A stretch of 58,973 nt of DNA from positions 1 through 58,973 of IMG/VR virus record IMGVR_UViG_3300007735_000765. The stretch is one strand, 5' to 3'. The notes beneath the pieces are model-generated. The model made no database searches. It had not been told where the DNA came from and saw nothing but the letters and a program-made list of their open reading frames with translations. Positions 3,426-42,348 of this stretch are shown piece by piece; position 1 is the stretch's first letter, and the number at the start of each line of letters is the position of its first letter. A program made the position numbers and the translations under genes. Source of the stretch: a virus (Duplodnaviria > Caudoviricetes).

Positions 3426-3881
3426 TTAGCTGTTATTGGGATAAGCTGTGCTGACTACAAACATCTGTCCTTGCGCACCCCAATTGTCATCCACATAGGC
3501 TGCATACTTTACGTTACCGCTGGTATAGTAAATGCTGTAAATGTACTGATCACGTTCAAAAGCATTTATGTTAGCTGTGGGGATAGTAACTGTCCCTATG
3601 CCTGTAGTAGCATTAGAAATAGTCACATTAGACTGAAATACGACGTTGGCATTGCTAGTTACGTAATCGTCTATTAGACTAAACACCAAGGGCTGTACGT
3701 TAGATAACGTATAGGGTTTTTGATCCTGATTTTGTACTCGGACTTTGATTACGTTGTCCACGCCCTTATAGCAGGTAATTGTTCTGGTATACACGACTCT
3801 GTTCCTTTGTTGTATATCTGGGTCCGTGGTTATTTGAACCAGAACCGTGTTATCATAGATATATGTATTAATCTGTTGCAT
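3426..3881 (-). CDS. Putative baseplate/BppU-like Ig-fold structural protein
   Basis: YKGVDNVIKVRVQNQDQKP pattern; TAAATA 5 nt before ATG. Confidence 0.5.
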   Translation of the reverse strand: MQQINTYIYDNTVLVQITTDPDIQQRNRVVYTRTITCYKGVDNVIKVRVQNQDQKPYTLSNVQPLVFSLIDDYVTSNANVVFQSNVTISNATTGIGTVTIPTANINAFERDQYIYSIYYTSGNVKYAAYVDDNWGAQGQMFVVSTAYPNNS

Positions 3882-32881: not shown

Positions 32882-32955
32882 TGGTGCTCCTAGCTGGTAA
32901 CGCTCCAGCGTTTCTACATTACCAATGTAGTGTAATACTTTTATACTATAAGAGC
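32882..32955 (-). tRNA. tRNA-Thr(GGU), non-canonical D/T loops
   Basis: Loop TT-GGT-AA; T-loop AGCGTTA; D-loop lacks GG. Confidence 0.75.
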
Positions 32956-35980: not shown

Positions 35981-36108
35981 ATATAGAAACACACTGTGGC
36001 GCTTGAATCCGCGATAGCCCTTCTCTTCACGGCTGGTCCTTGCTCTGTCTAGAATTGGCAAGTATTTCAGTTGTTCCGCTGTAGCTATTCAATGTGTTTT
36101 TATATGGT
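35978..36108 (-). ncRNA. Inter-tRNA spacer RNA closed by a long ATAT..AAACAC stem (copy A)
   Basis: ACCATATAGAAACACA (35978-35993) is an inverted repeat of TGTGTTTTTATATGGT (36093-36108). Confidence 0.5.
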
Positions 36109-36191
36109 GAGTCAGGTGGGAATCGAACCCACAAGGGCAATTTGCCGCCAGATTAAAAGTCTGGTACCGCAACCTATTCGGTGTCTGACCC
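36105..36191 (-). tRNA. tRNA-Lys(UUU) with a long variable arm
   Basis: CCAGA-CTTTTAA-TCTGG; extra GGC-AAATT-GCC arm; 87 nt. Confidence 0.8.
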
Positions 36192-36573: not shown

Positions 36574-37767
36574 CTACTCTTTAAGTAGCCCAAGTTCTAC
36601 AGTTTTTTCGATAACCTTACTCGATTCACAAAAGTGAACTACATTATTACTATCGATCCACAAAGGTATGGTAGTATTGTTTACGTTCCGTATTTTGTTT
36701 ACCGCCGTTGCCATACTTAAACTTTTAACTTTATTTTTAAAATTAAAGTAAAATTCATTGCCATCCACTTCGTATATTACACGTTTGTGTTGTAAATGAC
36801 TTTTTCCTGTGCTATAATCAGCAAATTTACTTGACTGATACTCTTGAAGAGCCCATTGTTGATATTCTTTAGTTTGAAACCACCCGAATGAGCCGTTAGT
36901 TAATTCTGTAATGTTTTTATATGGTGTGCAATATCGCACCGACTCATATGAATCAAAAGTCCAAAAATTAAAATCCCACCACCAGAAAAAATCCCCAACA
37001 GTGGCAATCTCTAATTTATATTCTTGTGCTGTGGATAATACCGCATTATAAATTAGTTCGCCGGCTCTAGTGTTTGTGTCGTCATTGGCCATCGACATAA
37101 ACTCCAGTATCTTGTCTTTATTATTAGCAAACGCAATATCTTTAGTACCGTACATCAGTAACCAACGCATACCAATTTCGCTGGCAGAGACTCTATCGCC
37201 ATTTTGGCCAGTTACTCTAAGCATATCATTATTGGGTTCGAATATTCGTTTCAATGCATGGTCAGTTGAGTTATAACGATTGGGAAAGTATTTTACAATT
37301 ATGTCCCTAGCAAAGTATGGATTTTCATCCACGCTATATTCGTTATAATAAATTTTAGTGTTGTTCCAAATATCTTTGTTACCATACTTAATCAAAATCG
37401 CAACAATAAAGGTACTGTCTAACCCCCCGGACCATTCGACTAGCAAACCGTTATGCGTTTGCAATCGATCCATCATTTGTGTATATCTATCATATGTTAC
37501 ATCGTCCCAGTCTAATGCTACCAAGGACTTTTGGGGTACGATATACTTGTCTAATAATCTGACAGGATGGAAAAATTCCGAACTAGTAGAAATCCTACTT
37601 TGGTGCATCCTATTGTCTAAATATGTTATTGTGTCTGATAAAAATGTTCTTCTTGAACGTTTGTATAATTGCAACCATTCATTTAGTTTTGAGTAATGCT
37701 GATATTGTTCGGGTGACATACTCATCACCACGGTAAGAGCATCAAACCAACTGATATTTTTTGTCAT
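36574..37767 (-). CDS. PP-loop (asparagine-synthetase-C-like) protein
   Basis: WSGGLDS and VTGQNGD; paralogous to 47257-48432. Confidence 0.65.
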   Translation of the reverse strand: MTKNISWFDALTVVMSMSPEQYQHYSKLNEWLQLYKRSRRTFLSDTITYLDNRMHQSRISTSSEFFHPVRLLDKYIVPQKSLVALDWDDVTYDRYTQMMDRLQTHNGLLVEWSGGLDSTFIVAILIKYGNKDIWNNTKIYYNEYSVDENPYFARDIIVKYFPNRYNSTDHALKRIFEPNNDMLRVTGQNGDRVSASEIGMRWLLMYGTKDIAFANNKDKILEFMSMANDDTNTRAGELIYNAVLSTAQEYKLEIATVGDFFWWWDFNFWTFDSYESVRYCTPYKNITELTNGSFGWFQTKEYQQWALQEYQSSKFADYSTGKSHLQHKRVIYEVDGNEFYFNFKNKVKSLSMATAVNKIRNVNNTTIPLWIDSNNVVHFCESSKVIEKTVELGLLKE

Positions 37768-38305
37768 TTATATCTCTAATAAAGTTACTTTGCAACTGCC
37801 CGACAAACTTATTTTCAAAAAGTTTATCTTTAAAAGACATAATACACGTATCTGCTTCTATAGGAGTTTTCTCCCAGTAAAGAATTTCGTGTATTTGTTT
37901 ACTAAATTCTTGCACTGCCGTATTCATTTCAGAAAAGTACTCATCAAATATACCATCGCCTTGTGGGCATAATTCCAAAATTGGTTCAGTGTACGCAGGC
38001 TCAATTTGATCGATTAACCATTGGATTTGGTATTCAGTTTTGTTTAATATCCACAAGCAATAATCTGCATAATTTTTAATATCAACTAAGTAGCCAGGAT
38101 CGCATTCATATTGTGCTAATTCTGTGCGTTTAGCTATATTTGTAAAACCATATCGATTACCATCCCTGGTGTAAATGTCTTCTGGTATTTCTACTATGTC
38201 CGTGAGAATTTTACTTTTTAGGATTAATCTAAGTTGCTTGATTAATTTTTCAGATTTGTCTGCAACTATTATAGAATTGTAATTTATATTATATAGAGCA
38301 TACAT
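37742..38305 (-). CDS. Hypothetical protein
   Basis: 187-aa AT-rich ORF overlapping the PP-loop gene. Confidence 0.6.
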   Translation of the reverse strand: MYALYNINYNSIIVADKSEKLIKQLRLILKSKILTDIVEIPEDIYTRDGNRYGFTNIAKRTELAQYECDPGYLVDIKNYADYCLWILNKTEYQIQWLIDQIEPAYTEPILELCPQGDGIFDEYFSEMNTAVQEFSKQIHEILYWEKTPIEADTCIMSFKDKLFENKFVGQLQSNFIRDINDKKYQLV

Positions 38306-38371
38306 CTTAATTTTGATTCACAGTATACACTATTTAATAACAAATAGTACACTATCTACAAATACTTGACT

Positions 38372-38470
38372 TGGTGCCGCCAGCAGGACTCGAACCTGCA
38401 CACTCAGGCTTATCTGGCCTGTGCTTTGGCGAGGTATAAGCTCGCTTCTTTACCATTAAGCTATGGCGGC
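38372..38470 (-). tRNA. tRNA-Ile(UAU), 99 nt, with a second anticodon-like hairpin in the variable arm
   Basis: GCGAG-CTTATAC-CTCGC; variable arm CAGGC-CAGATAA-GCCTG; normal T arm and CCA. Confidence 0.8.
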
Positions 38471-38476
38471 AAAAAT

Positions 38477-38590
38477 AACAGGATACCTTCGTTTGACGAA
38501 TGCTCTACCTAATGAGCTAATCTTCCATGCGGAAAATGTTGGAATCGAACCAACTACCTATCGTTTGATAGAATTTGCTGTATGTATCCT
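38477..38590 (-). ncRNA. CAGCA-stem RNA copy 4: YrlA-type circularly permuted tRNA mimic
   Basis: AGGATAC/GTATCCT stem enclosing T arm GTTGG-TTCGATT-CCAAC, closed acceptor ATTTTCC-GCAT-GGAAGAT, then D arm GCTC-ATTAGGTA-GAGC. Confidence 0.8.
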
Positions 38591-40187
38591 AAAACTTGAC
38601 TATCGGCACTATGCGCTTAATAGGCTGTGTTCTGTGCCGATAAAATTCTGTGTAATCGTATGTGAGCTTTTTAATTTTATACTCATTGATTCTTTGATCT
38701 GAGCGAGATTTCATCTCAGTCAGTGGTGGCACAGATTTACCTGAAATCCACGTTTTAATATCATTTAAACTATAACCCAAACTCACATAGTCAAACTGAG
38801 TCCATGCGCTGACTCGTTGGTCTGTAACGGATTGATTTAGTTCACAGCTTGTTTTAAGCGCCGTGAAATAATTTTCGCCGTTGTTTAAATCTTTCCAGTA
38901 GCCTACTTTGCTTCTAAAGTTTTCGTCGATAAAAGGTCTGTAAGTATACTGATGCTGGCGATTCTTATACAAATATTCTAACCGCCAAAGTTTACGCACT
39001 TCTGCATTAACTTCTGAGTCAGACATTATACTCAATCCATATCTATCAAACTCTTTGCTGAATTCGCTGGTATGAATTGTTTTTTCTTGTTTGGTAATGT
39101 ACAAAGGTTGCCAATACCAATATTCAACACCACTGGTCTGTAACCATTGGTTTTCACTGTGATAATCACTGTCATCTCCAGGTAATCCAACAATCATTGA
39201 ACAGTTTGTAGTAACATTGGGCATCTGTTCTTTCCACCACAGAATAGCATCTTTAGCACGTTGTCCAGTAAATCCTTTGCCTACTAAACGACCAGCTTCT
39301 TTGCTAAAAGTTTCTATTCCAAAGTGAATACCTTGCAGTCCCATGTTTCGTAATAATTCTGCACTGTGCGGCCGGGCCGCAATTAAATCAAGTCTGCCAT
39401 AGGCAGTAAAATTAATTTTAAATGGTAAGCTAGTAATAGCTCGCTCCAGTGTCTCTAATTTTTCAATGCTGTCATTGAATGTATCTTCATTGATAAGGTA
39501 ATTTGTTATGCCCCACTGATCGTAGTTTGTTTTTAATTCTGTGACAATAGTGTTGGGGTCACGTATGTAATCCAATTTACTTTTACCAATCAATGGGTAT
39601 GTGCAAAATTTACACTTAAAAATACAACCCCTGGCAGTTTCCATACCAAGAGTTTGCTCTGGGCGAAGAAAATCTGTGCTAAGATATTCTATGGTCAAGT
39701 CATTGGTATCCACAGGACCGTAATCGGTCAATGCGTCTATTAGATTGTCTGCCAATGGACTCCAGTGAATATCATTGCGATCAATTTTACCACGAAGATA
39801 ATCCAGTAAATGCAGTATAGCATTTTCTGCGTAACCTTCTACATAGTAGTCCACGCAAGGAATACTACGTGTTAATGTTTGATTGCCGCCTAATACTATA
39901 GGAAGATTGGGATAGCGTTGCTTAATTAGTCGTATGGTGTCGTCAAACCGCGACCTATCTAAAAATAGATTGCTACCTATACCTAAAAACAATGTTGAAT
40001 TAGATATTAACTTTGACAATAACTCAAGAAGCTCTGATTCAGACCAACTCAGGCAATAGTCAATGACTTCTATGTTATATCCGTGTTGTCTAAGGTGTGT
40101 GGCAATTTTGTGTGCGCCTGCACCTCTGTGACAAGTTATATCTAAATTGTTAAAGGTGTTGTCTGTGAGTATTACACCATGTATCAT
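38589..40187 (-). CDS. B12-binding radical SAM enzyme
   Basis: IVLGG, EGYAE, ARGCIFKCKFC, EDTF, GIET and IVGLP. Confidence 0.85.
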   Translation of the reverse strand: MIHGVILTDNTFNNLDITCHRGAGAHKIATHLRQHGYNIEVIDYCLSWSESELLELLSKLISNSTLFLGIGSNLFLDRSRFDDTIRLIKQRYPNLPIVLGGNQTLTRSIPCVDYYVEGYAENAILHLLDYLRGKIDRNDIHWSPLADNLIDALTDYGPVDTNDLTIEYLSTDFLRPEQTLGMETARGCIFKCKFCTYPLIGKSKLDYIRDPNTIVTELKTNYDQWGITNYLINEDTFNDSIEKLETLERAITSLPFKINFTAYGRLDLIAARPHSAELLRNMGLQGIHFGIETFSKEAGRLVGKGFTGQRAKDAILWWKEQMPNVTTNCSMIVGLPGDDSDYHSENQWLQTSGVEYWYWQPLYITKQEKTIHTSEFSKEFDRYGLSIMSDSEVNAEVRKLWRLEYLYKNRQHQYTYRPFIDENFRSKVGYWKDLNNGENYFTALKTSCELNQSVTDQRVSAWTQFDYVSLGYSLNDIKTWISGKSVPPLTEMKSRSDQRINEYKIKKLTYDYTEFYRHRTQPIKRIVPIVKF

Positions 40188-42274: not shown

Positions 42275-42348
42275 TGGTACCCCCGGGAGGTAACGCTCCT
42301 CCGACTGCCGGTTATCAGCCGACTGTTATACTTTTTAACTAAAGGGGC
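42275..42348 (-). tRNA. tRNA-Ile(GAU), non-canonical D/T loops
   Basis: Loop CT-GAT-AA; T-loop AGCGTTA; D-loop lacks GG. Confidence 0.75.

What the first reader, a model, noticed from the sequence alone, without database searches (positions are those of the whole stretch)
38372..38470. tRNA-Ile(UAU) with a second, GAU-bearing anticodon arm
Seen: a 99-nt tRNA with normal acceptor, D and T arms and CCA. The anticodon arm is GCGAG-CTTATAC-CTCGC (UAU). The roughly 28-nt variable region holds a perfect 5+7+5 hairpin, CAGGC-CAGATAA-GCCTG (38405-38421), whose central triplet is GAU. That loop differs by one base from the Ile(GAU) loop CUGAUAA. Established: most bacteria read AUA with lysidine-modified CAU, and IleRS reads the anticodon (GAU or LAU); UAU tRNAs are rare. 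Inference: one arm may decode AUA independently of TilS while the other provides IleRS identity, with A33 disfavouring decoding, or acts as a decoy. The window also encodes Ile(GAU) and an Ile2(CAU)-like tRNA.
Basis: partly seen in the sequence, partly recalled or inferred. Interest (0 to 1): 0.82.

Follow-up and report, generated by a model that had tools for sequence, protein, structure and literature searches.

The report
Two-headed phage isoleucine tRNA family
This phage tRNA reads the rare isoleucine codon AUA with one hairpin and carries a second, strictly conserved hairpin that copies the anticodon loop of the ordinary isoleucine tRNA, a design shared by well over a hundred phage tRNAs that I found described in no paper.

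Summary
Window 38372-38470 (- strand) is a 99-nt tRNA with anticodon arm GCGAG-CUUAUAC-CUCGC (UAU). A second perfect hairpin, CAGGC-CAGAUAA-GCCUG (38405-38421), is followed by a 5-nt stretch of normal variable-loop length.

- **Family size.** A scan that did not constrain the second hairpin gave 96 distinct long tRNA(UAU) sequences in viral contigs. GAU sits at positions 3-5 of a 7-nt loop in 95; one has GAC.
- **Covariation.** In a structural alignment of 95 distinct members the loop is Y-A-G-A-U-N-R (G 95/95, A 95/95, U 93/95), while the stem covaries.
- **Reverse scan.** With the loop fixed and the anticodon free, all 112 real tRNAs had UAU.
- **Independent sample.** In loci chosen by a protein, 10 of 10 tRNA-Ile(UAU) had the hairpin.
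- **Other carriers.** Members occur in cultured Vibrio and Acinetobacter phages and in tRNA arrays of bacterial genomes that keep TilS.
- **Codon meaning.** ATA codons align like Ile codons, not Leu.

Best reading (inferred, untested): hairpin 1 decodes AUA without TilS, and hairpin 2 supplies the GAU identity signal that bacterial IleRS needs. I found no description of this design in print. Interest is high.

The parts
38372..38470 (-). whole tRNA gene, 99 nt including the encoded CCA (38372-38374) and discriminator A (38375)
   Evidence: Sequence. Rfam tRNA 59.5 bits. Family model R1 80.8 bits.
38464..38470 (-). acceptor stem 5' strand, GCCGCCA
   Evidence: Pairs with 38376-38382. Helix 1 covaries in the family, 7 of 7 pairs.
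38447..38461 (-). D arm: GCUU, loop AAUGGUA, AAGA. Three standard pairs plus G.A in the UAU reading.
   Evidence: An alternative 4-bp pairing of GCUU with AAGC in the linker gives fold B at -35.2 kcal/mol, against -34.6 to -35.1 for fold A.
38429..38445 (-). hairpin 1, the decoding anticodon arm GCGAG-CUUAUAC-CUCGC. The UAU anticodon lies at 38436-38438.
   Evidence: U33 and A37 are present. Helix 3 covaries, 5 of 5 pairs.
38422..38428 (-). 7-nt linker CAAAGCA between the two hairpins. It contains a second copy of the D-stem 3' strand (AAGC).
   Evidence: This second copy is present in 17 of 17 members of the 96-nt class and in 21 of 142 members overall.
38405..38421 (-). hairpin 2, a mimic of the tRNA-Ile(GAU) anticodon arm: CAGGC-CAGAUAA-GCCUG. 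GAU lies at 38412-38414.
   Evidence: Family loop consensus Y-A-G-A-U-N-R with G 95/95, A 95/95 and U 93/95. The stem covaries.
38400..38404 (-). 5-nt tail AGUGU, with the length and make-up of a class I variable loop and ending in U48
   Evidence: The tail is 4 nt in 69 and 5 nt in 26 of 95 members. Its pattern is N-G-N-(N)-U, and the final U is 95/95.
38383..38399 (-). T arm GCAGG-UUCGAGU-CCUGC
   Evidence: Helix 5 is 100% paired in the family.
38376..38382 (-). acceptor stem 3' strand, UGGCGGC

Best explanation
This is a functional, phage-borne tRNA-Ile that decodes AUA with an unmodified-C-free UAU anticodon, so it does not depend on the host's TilS. It belongs to a large family carried on mobile elements. 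In that family a second hairpin sits between the anticodon stem and a variable loop of normal length. The second hairpin has the size of an anticodon arm: 3-5 standard pairs, about five stacked positions once a usually non-standard closing pair is counted, plus a 7-nt loop. It displays G-A-U at the anticodon positions.

Shown here:
- the anatomy
- family-wide conservation of the GAU loop with a covarying stem
- exclusive coupling of the hairpin to a UAU anticodon
- ATA codons behaving as Ile codons

Inferred: bacterial IleRS reads position 34 and accepts U34 poorly, so the identity triplet has been moved to hairpin 2. IleRS would dock on hairpin 2 and charge the tRNA with Ile. The ribosome would use hairpin 1. 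A (rarely C) in place of U33 keeps hairpin 2 out of decoding.

Each hairpin has one canonical junction. Hairpin 1 follows the D stem after one nucleotide. Hairpin 2 runs straight into the variable loop. Either one could therefore stack under the D stem, and the two enzymes may capture different conformers.
For: **1. The hairpin is conserved.**
- My hairpin parser gave a loop with GAU at positions 3-5 for 89 of them. Six that it mis-registered also carry AGAU in the hairpin when read by eye. One has GAC.
- In the structural alignment of 95 distinct members the loop positions are: C70/U25; A89; G95; A95; U93/C2; U45/A35/G12/C3; A79/G13/U3.

**2. The stem covaries.**
- The three inner pairs show CG72 AU16 GC6; GC56 UG14 UA13 AU11; and CG77 GC17.
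- For all 26 pairs of the cloverleaf together, 95.3% of cells are paired against 66.0% in shuffles, with 0 of 500 shuffles as high. Slid controls give 40-49%.
- For the hairpin-2 helix alone (5 pairs) 81.9% of cells are paired. No separate control was run for this helix.

**3. The hairpin goes only with UAU.** With the loop CAGAUWA fixed and the anticodon left free, 112 of 112 real tRNAs have UAU.

**4. Independent sample.** In 78 loci fetched through a radical-SAM protein, ARAGORN found 363 tRNAs. All 10 tRNA-Ile(UAU) carry the hairpin, including 3 with a different D arm.

**5. The plain form is rarer.** Class I UAU tRNAs with the same D loop gave only 12 stretches.

**6. ATA means Ile.** ATA codons pair with ATT/ATC 21%, Leu codons 15% and Val 16%. 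ATT/ATC give 28/16/14 and Leu codons give 8/46/5.5. Log-likelihood favours the Ile profile over Leu (-3848 against -4548).

**7. The need is real.**
- E. coli IleRS kcat/Km is 360-fold lower for UAU than for LAU, and position 34 is read by the Zn-binding C-terminal domain (PMC3575796, passages and Table 1; PMC13752280, passages).
- Genomes that carry members in tRNA arrays keep TilS: 4 of 5 over the cut-off and the fifth partial. The tRNA is therefore a portable add-on, not a host replacement.

**8. The tail after hairpin 2** is 4 or 5 nt in 95 of 95 members, the length of a class I variable loop. Canonical class II tRNAs of the same window leave 1-2 nt there by my reading of the sequences.

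**9. Other Ile features in the family:** A73 94/95, U12-A23 93/95, C4-G69 56/95. The Ile identity set is taken from PMC9976931 (passages).
Against: - No charging, binding or structural data exist.
- Class I synthetases such as IleRS are usually described as approaching tRNA from the D-arm side, with the variable region facing solvent (recalled textbook knowledge). Contact with hairpin 2 would need a swapped or bent conformer.
- The alternative D-stem pairing that would favour such a swap is possible in only 21 of 142 members.
- Position 6 of the loop, equivalent to 37 and bearing the identity element t6A37 in E. coli tRNA-Ile, is U or G in 57 of 95 members. The mimicry is therefore limited to Y-A-G-A-U and mostly A at position 7.
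- The contiguous stem varies from 3 to 9 pairs. That fits poorly with rigid docking.
- A at the position equivalent to 33 is conserved as strongly as GAU.
- Nine or so class I UAU tRNAs exist on large viral contigs, so the hairpin is not indispensable everywhere.
Confidence: 0.5

Rival explanations
1. Hairpin 2 is a handle or shield for a factor other than IleRS. Candidates are an enzyme that modifies U34 or must be kept away from it so that AUG is not misread, a ribonuclease, or a host anticodon nuclease for which the loop acts as bait or protection.
For: A at loop position 2 is conserved as strongly as GAU (89/95). Position 6 is free. The motif is therefore AGAU rather than a full Ile anticodon loop. 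Phage tRNAs that counter tRNA-cutting defences are known (recalled, not read here).
Against: The triplet at the anticodon positions is exactly the Ile anticodon, in a 7-nt loop on a stem about as long as an anticodon stem. It occurs only together with UAU (112 of 112). The family sits in very different phages and in bacterial tRNA arrays, so the partner must be nearly universal. No nuclease specific for tRNA-Ile(GAU) in phage defence came up in my searches.
Confidence: 0.2
2. Hairpin 2 has a structural or kinetic role only, such as folding, stability or fit on the ribosome to limit AUG misreading. No sequence-specific reader is involved.
For: Long variable arms are tolerated by the translation machinery. 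The window also has a tRNA-Lys(UUU) with a long arm that resembles no anticodon.
Against: A purely structural arm would not keep G-A invariant and U at 98% while every stem pair changes.
Confidence: 0.1
3. The tRNA is charged by a synthetase that ignores the anticodon, so AUA is recoded or made ambiguous. LeuRS would do this as in nematode nev-tRNA(UAU), or SerRS as in allo-tRNA(UAU). In the rare GAC-loop variants ValRS could be the enzyme.
For: tRNAs with a long arm and a UAU anticodon are charged with Leu in nematodes (PMC3333845 and PMC4300185, abstracts seen). UAU is a predominant anticodon of allo-tRNAs (PMC5389517, section 14). A73, A15 and U48 fit E. coli Leu identity (PMC9976931 passages; family counts). 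Three members carry GAC, the Val anticodon, in the loop.
Against: ATA codons in the window and its relatives align like Ile codons and unlike Leu codons. Leu or Ser charging would not explain a conserved GAU loop. The fold is 7/5 with A73, not 8/4 with G73 or U73.
Confidence: 0.04
4. Hairpin 2 is an insert that is removed during maturation.
For: Nothing positive.
Against: Contigs from four metatranscriptome libraries of four studies hold the whole tRNA with the hairpin, with 0-2 differences and no gaps or joints. DNA carry-over or precursors cannot be excluded. No bacterial system that excises about 20 nt at this place is known to me (recalled). Removal would not explain loop conservation.
Confidence: 0.03
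5. It is a pseudogene or a chance duplication with no function.
For: ARAGORN with default settings does not call it.
Against: The 99-nt sequence is identical in contigs with different flanks. All five helices covary. The family holds at least 142 distinct sequences.
Confidence: 0.01

Closest known systems
TilS-independent tRNA-Ile(UAU) of Mycoplasma mobile (PMC3575796)
   Same: The AUA codon is read by an unmodified-C-free UAU anticodon, so no lysidine is needed.
   Different: There the synthetase changed: Arg865 in the Zn-binding domain accepts U34 (abstract and passages seen). Those passages mention no extra arm on that tRNA; its full sequence is in a supplementary figure that I could not open. 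Here the tRNA itself carries an extra GAU hairpin and lives on mobile elements whose hosts keep TilS.
Nematode nev-tRNA-Ile(UAU) (PMC3333845, PMC4300185)
   Same: UAU anticodon combined with a long extra arm.
   Different: nev-tRNAs are eukaryotic and are charged with Leu in vitro. The abstracts report no anticodon-like loop. Here ATA behaves as Ile and the loop is GAU.
Bacterial allo-tRNA(UAU) (PMC5389517)
   Same: A long extra arm; UAU is a predominant anticodon; found in Acidobacteria among other bacteria and in phages.
   Different: allo-tRNAs have an 8/4 or 9/3 acceptor/T geometry, a D arm like that of tRNA-Sec, and mostly G73 or U73 (Ser identity). This family is 7/5 with a 4-bp D stem, a 7-nt D loop and A73.
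Canonical class II tRNAs (Leu, Ser, Tyr)
   Same: An extra helix between the anticodon and T arms.
   Different: In the window's own Ser and Leu tRNAs the arm has a 3-6-nt loop and leaves 1-2 nt before the T stem, by my reading. Here the loop is always 7 nt with a fixed GAU, and a full 4-5-nt variable loop follows.
Bacillus subtilis tilS-bypass suppressor tRNA-Ile with UAU (PMC3919564, abstract seen)
   Same: AUA is decoded without TilS.
   Different: That tRNA arose in a laboratory strain in which tilS had been deleted. The abstract mentions no added arm.

Membership tests
tRNA (Rfam RF00005) | Cloverleaf that scores above the curated gathering score | tested here: met
   59.5 bits against a gathering score of 29, full length 1-71. 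The model takes hairpin 2 as the anticodon arm.
Two-hairpin tRNA-Ile(UAU) family defined here | UAU anticodon in a 7-nt loop with U33 and A37 | tested here: met
   CUUAUAC at 38432-38438. All 112 real tRNAs in the reverse scan have UAU.
Two-hairpin tRNA-Ile(UAU) family defined here | Second hairpin with a 7-nt loop Y-A-G-A-U-N-R | tested here: met
   CAGAUAA.
Two-hairpin tRNA-Ile(UAU) family defined here | A 4-5-nt tail ending in U48 after hairpin 2; A73 | tested here: met
   Tail AGUGU and discriminator A. Family: tail 4 or 5 nt in 95/95, A73 in 94/95. R1 score 80.8 bits.
Bacterial tRNA-Ile2 (lysidine type) | CAU anticodon converted by TilS | tested here: not met
   The anticodon is UAU. No TilS was found in the window.
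Class II tRNA (Leu/Ser/Tyr type) | Extra arm followed by 1-2 nt before the T stem; anticodon of Leu, Ser or Tyr | tested here: not met
   The tail is 5 nt and the anticodon is UAU.
allo-tRNA | 8/4 or 9/3 acceptor/T-stem geometry; G73 or U73 | tested here: not met
   7-bp acceptor stem, 5-bp T stem and A73.
nev-tRNA-like recoding tRNA | AUA decoded as Leu | tested here: not met
   The codon alignment profile of ATA matches Ile. Charging itself was not measured.
IleRS substrate (E. coli identity set, PMC9976931) | A73; anticodon G34/L34-A35-U36; t6A37; C4-G69, U12-A23, C29-G41 | tested here: inconclusive
   In the window copy A73 and U12-A23 are present. 4-69 is G-C and 29-41 is G-C, so both differ from E. 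coli. G34 is absent from hairpin 1 but present in hairpin 2. Family: C4-G69 56/95, U12-A23 93/95, C29-G41 25/95.

The most novel reading that the evidence does not exclude
This is a natural tRNA in which the identity anticodon and the decoding anticodon are physically separate. IleRS reads a GAU loop on one hairpin and the ribosome reads UAU on the other, perhaps through two interchangeable stackings of the two hairpins under the D stem. The design would be a portable, TilS-independent AUA decoder that works with any bacterial IleRS, which would explain its spread on phages and tRNA-array islands. The rare GAC-loop variants would then be natural identity switches towards Val.
Probability: 0.4. 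Interest if true: 0.92.

Novelty: new variant of a known kind. Interest (0 to 1): 0.8.

Why it matters
**The open problem.** AUA decoding is a classic difficulty of the genetic code, because U34 reads both A and G and IleRS checks position 34. Known solutions change the base (lysidine, agmatidine, inosine or pseudouridine) or change the synthetase and ribosome, as in M. mobile. This family suggests a further solution written into the architecture of the tRNA itself.

**What it would show if the inference holds.** A synthetase's anticodon requirement could be met from outside the decoding arm. That bears on tRNA identity rules and on the evolution of class II arms. It would also give a ready-made scaffold for engineering tRNAs whose charging and decoding are uncoupled.

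**Annotation.** Default tRNA finders miss or mislabel these genes. The window copy is missed by ARAGORN, and one Vibrio phage record labels its copy tRNA-Arg.

**Testability.** Cultured carriers exist, namely the Vibrio Thalassavirus phages and an Acinetobacter phage, so the idea can be tested directly.

Tried and rejected
- **blastn against named phages.** A 2-kb stretch around the tRNA gave nothing. The window tRNA gave only two partial hits. The L003-type tRNA gave nothing. blastn is weak for diverged tRNAs, so the list of cultured carriers is a lower bound.
- **blastn-short of the tRNA against the first 81 loci** found only the window itself. Pattern scans and ARAGORN were needed.
- **Codon mimic.** I considered that the loop offers an AUN codon to pair with the UAU anticodon. 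I rejected it because C occurs at loop position 6 (CAGAUCA in three bacterial members), the preceding A-G would stay unexplained, and a 2-nt linker cannot span an intramolecular kissing complex.
- **Fold B for the whole family.** In fold B the D stem pairs with a second AAGC. It is about isoenergetic with fold A in the window copy but possible in only 21 of 142 members.
- **TilS replacement in the bacteria that carry the tRNA.** Rejected: TilS is present in 4 of 5 genomes over the cut-off and in a partial form in the fifth.
- **Are the hairpin-less class I UAU tRNAs from giant eukaryotic viruses?** No NCLDV capsid match in 4 records, but the control genomes also gave none and one record was not held. 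Inconclusive.
- **Neighbouring genes as partners.** The 532-aa protein upstream is a radical SAM enzyme with a sub-threshold B12-binding match. The 397-aa protein with an SGGLDS motif gives only a weak QueC-like PHROG hit. Carriers such as the 54.7-kb Acinetobacter phage have other neighbours. No link is claimed.
- **Promoter and terminator scan** of 38200-38750 was no better than shuffles.
- **RNA libraries.** They show that the full-length sequence is present, not that it is transcribed or mature.
- **Literature.** Searches found no paper on a phage tRNA-Ile with an extra GAU hairpin. Subscription journals and supplementary files were not searchable.

Full report
**What is there**

On the - strand at 38372-38470 lies a 99-nt tRNA gene. 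Its parts, in order:
- a 7-bp acceptor stem, then U8-A9
- a D arm with loop AAUGGUA
- hairpin 1, GCGAG-CUUAUAC-CUCGC (anticodon UAU, with U33 and A37)
- a 7-nt linker, CAAAGCA
- hairpin 2, CAGGC-CAGAUAA-GCCUG (38405-38421)
- a 5-nt tail, AGUGU
- a normal T arm
- discriminator A and an encoded CCA

The window is a fragment of an IMG/VR virus record, 58,973 bases and 17% complete by CheckV. It carries more than 30 tRNA genes, all on the - strand.

ARAGORN with default settings misses this gene, and relaxed settings give wrong calls. The Rfam tRNA model scores 59.5 bits but takes hairpin 2 as the anticodon arm, with a 25-nt insert in the D loop. That ambiguity is real. The cloverleaf with hairpin 1 as the anticodon arm (fold A) evaluates to -34.6 to -35.1 kcal/mol. 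The alternative, in which the D stem pairs with the AAGC of the linker (fold B), evaluates to -35.2 kcal/mol.

**It is a family, not an oddity**

At the syntenic place after the homologous radical-SAM gene, three related viral contigs carry a 95-nt tRNA-Ile(UAU). Its second hairpin is GCGC-CAGAUUA-GCGC.

A scan of viral contigs used a pattern that fixed only the D loop, the UAU loop and the T loop and asked for a long variable region. These, with the window and earlier loci, are 96 distinct sequences. My simple hairpin parser reported a 7-nt loop with GAU at positions 3-5 for 89 of them:

| Loop | Count |
|---|---|
| CAGAUUA | 36 |
| CAGAUAA | 31 |
| UAGAUGA | 6 |
| UAGAUAA | 5 |
| UAGAUUG | 4 |
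| UAGAUGG | 3 |
| UAGAUGU | 2 |
| UAGAUAG | 1 |
| UUGAUAG | 1 |

Six more were mis-registered by the parser but contain the same AGAU hairpin when read by eye. One has CGGACGG.

I built a covariance model from 24 members and aligned 97 hits, 95 of them distinct, from 100 sources.

- Over all 26 pairs of the cloverleaf, 95.3% of cells are paired against 66.0% in shuffles. None of 500 shuffles is as high. Slid controls give 40-49%.
- For the hairpin-2 helix alone, 81.9% of cells are paired. No separate control was run for it.
- Its three inner pairs show CG72 AU16 GC6; GC56 UG14 UA13 AU11; and CG77 GC17.
- The fourth pair has 17 unpaired cells.
- The fifth is mostly a non-standard pair: G.A 26, A.C 14, A.G 10, A.A 9, G.G 8.
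- The loop columns are C70/U25; A89/U2/G2/C2; G95; A95; U93/C2; U45/A35/G12/C3; A79/G13/U3.

**Coupling to UAU**

A reverse scan fixed the loop as CAGAUWA and left the anticodon free. It gave 113 distinct sequences. One is a chance match. All 112 real tRNAs have UAU as anticodon, within loops CUUAUAC 64, UUUAUAU 30, UUUAUAC 8, CUUAUAA 5 and four rarer forms.

An independent sample came from the 78 loci fetched through the radical-SAM protein. ARAGORN found 363 tRNAs in 21 of them. All 10 tRNA-Ile(UAU) are 91-95 nt long and carry the hairpin, three of them with a quite different D arm. In that sample Ile(UAU) is the only recurrent long tRNA apart from Ser, Leu and Tyr.

With the same D-loop pattern but a short variable region, only 12 stretches were found.

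**Where else it occurs**

*Named phages.* Members are present in Acinetobacter phage vB_AbaS_qsb1 and in 43 Vibrio phage records. Thalassavirus achelous is one example, where the gene sits beside a tRNA-Ile(GAU); henriette 12B8 is another. All but two of the 40 Vibrio records listed are annotated simply as tRNA-Ile. One is annotated tRNA-Arg and one is not annotated.

*Bacterial genomes.* One genome per species gave 31 pattern matches. By my reading 17 are real tRNAs. ARAGORN confirmed the 16 that I tested. The remaining 14 lack a cloverleaf by my reading and were not run through ARAGORN.
- The 17 lie in Acidobacteriota, Sphingopyxis, Flavonifractor, Streptomyces, Verrucomicrobiae and other lineages.
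- Eleven of the 16 tested sit among 5 to 33 tRNA genes within 8 kb.
- Their loops include CAGAUCA, CCGAUGA, CCGAUUA and CUGAUUA. GAU is therefore the constant element, and the preceding base is mostly A.
- TilS is present in the five Acidobacteriota genomes checked: 4 over the cut-off and 1 partial. One of these genomes, G005, is unpublished.

*RNA libraries.* Contigs from four metatranscriptome libraries hold exactly the window tRNA. They show 0-2 differences, no gaps and different flanks. The sequence therefore occurs unchanged in other genomic contexts. These contigs do not prove transcription.

**What it decodes**

I paired codons through tblastn alignments between window ORFs and the related loci at 25-90% identity.

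| Codon class | aligned with ATT/ATC | aligned with Leu codons | aligned with Val codons |
|---|---|---|---|
| ATA | 21% | 15% | 16% |
| ATT/ATC | 28% | 16% | 14% |
| Leu codons | 8% | 46% | 5.5% |

The log-likelihood of the ATA profile is best under Ile in both directions. ATA makes up 262 of 1,027 Ile codons in window ORFs of 120 aa or more. AUA therefore means Ile, or something indistinguishable from Ile. Leu recoding as in nematode nev-tRNAs is unlikely.

**How it probably works**

- E. coli IleRS has a 360-fold lower kcat/Km for UAU than for LAU. The wobble base is read by the C-terminal Zn-binding domain (PMC3575796, abstract, passages and Table 1; PMC13752280, passages).
- A mobile tRNA that avoids TilS by using UAU therefore faces a charging problem in ordinary hosts.
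- Hairpin 2 has the dimensions of an anticodon arm and displays G-A-U at the anticodon positions, mostly with A at position 7. Hairpin 1 has U34, and C or U at position 38 in 104 of 112 members.
- Hairpin 2 is followed by 4 nt (69 members) or 5 nt (26 members) of the form N-G-N-(N)-U. That is a class I variable loop, unlike the 1-2 nt left by the window's own Ser and Leu tRNAs.
- Hairpin 1 thus has the canonical junction to the D stem, and hairpin 2 has the canonical junction to the variable loop. Either could stack under the D stem.

My best reading, at confidence 0.5, is that IleRS uses hairpin 2 as its anticodon and the ribosome uses hairpin 1. A in place of U33 would keep hairpin 2 out of decoding.

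The points against this reading are:
- no biochemical data exist
- IleRS is expected to approach from the D-arm side (recalled)
- loop position 6 is free
- stem length varies from 3 to 9 pairs
- fold B is possible in only 21 of 142 members

**Comparison with known systems**

The family is not a lysidine-type tRNA-Ile2 (no C34). It is not an allo-tRNA (7/5 geometry with A73). It is not a canonical class II tRNA (7-nt loop and a full variable loop after the arm). By the codon test it is not a nev-like Leu tRNA.

It works like the M. mobile UAU system in bypassing TilS. The proposed adaptation, however, is in the tRNA rather than in the synthetase.

Nine full-text searches found no description of this design. 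I also read passages of reviews on tRNA identity and on non-canonical tRNAs (PMC9976931, PMC7609411). Subscription journals and supplements were out of reach.

**Verdict**

I rate it a new variant of a known kind, of high interest, and directly testable in cultured phage-host pairs and with E. coli IleRS in vitro.

Noticed in passing
window 38477-38590 (-): Immediately upstream of the tRNA is a 114-nt element that matches the Rfam Y RNA-like family YrlA at 34.8 bits, below the gathering score of 69. It has a T-arm-like and a D-arm-like hairpin in permuted order. No Ro/TROVE protein was found in the window. The element is absent at the syntenic place in L003-L005.
   Followed up: partly
window 42278-42348 (-) and 32885-32955 (-): Two tRNAs are found only by Rfam and missed by ARAGORN: Ile(GAU) and Thr(GGU). 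Both have an unusual T loop (AGCGUUA) in place of UUCGA.
   Followed up: partly
window 36105-36191 (-): tRNA-Lys(UUU) is 87 nt long with a long extra arm (GGCA-AAU-UGCC), which is unusual for Lys. The loop resembles no anticodon.
   Followed up: partly
L151:524-612 (+), L325 (match at 3597-3641, -), L214:6371-6462 (+): A rare variant of the family has CGGAC(N)G in the second loop. GAC is the Val anticodon. If the loop is a synthetase handle, these could be charged with Val.
   Followed up: partly
L203, L222, L231 (bacterial tRNA arrays, Acidobacteriota): The arrays that hold family members also hold other over-long tRNAs: Trp(CCA) of 88 nt and Arg(GCG) of 93 nt. L231 lies in a genome flagged as unpublished.
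   Followed up: no
L326:1119-1194: The tRNA-Ile(GAU) next to the two-hairpin tRNA in Vibrio phage Achelous has anticodon loop CCGAUAA, with C instead of the near-universal U at position 33.
   Followed up: no
window 36574-37767 (-) and 38589-40187 (-): The tRNA lies between two genes. One encodes a 397-aa protein with a PP-loop-like SGGLDS motif and only a weak QueC-like PHROG hit. The other encodes a 532-aa radical SAM protein with a sub-threshold B12-binding match. More than 300 stretches in viral contigs encode relatives of the 532-aa protein.
   Followed up: partly
L208, L209, L211, L217, L220, L224, L228 (Gallionella and Nitrosomonadales genomes): A nearly identical stretch of about 95 nt matched the tRNA pattern by chance in seven genomes. 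It is not a tRNA. It appears to be a conserved element of unknown nature.
   Followed up: no
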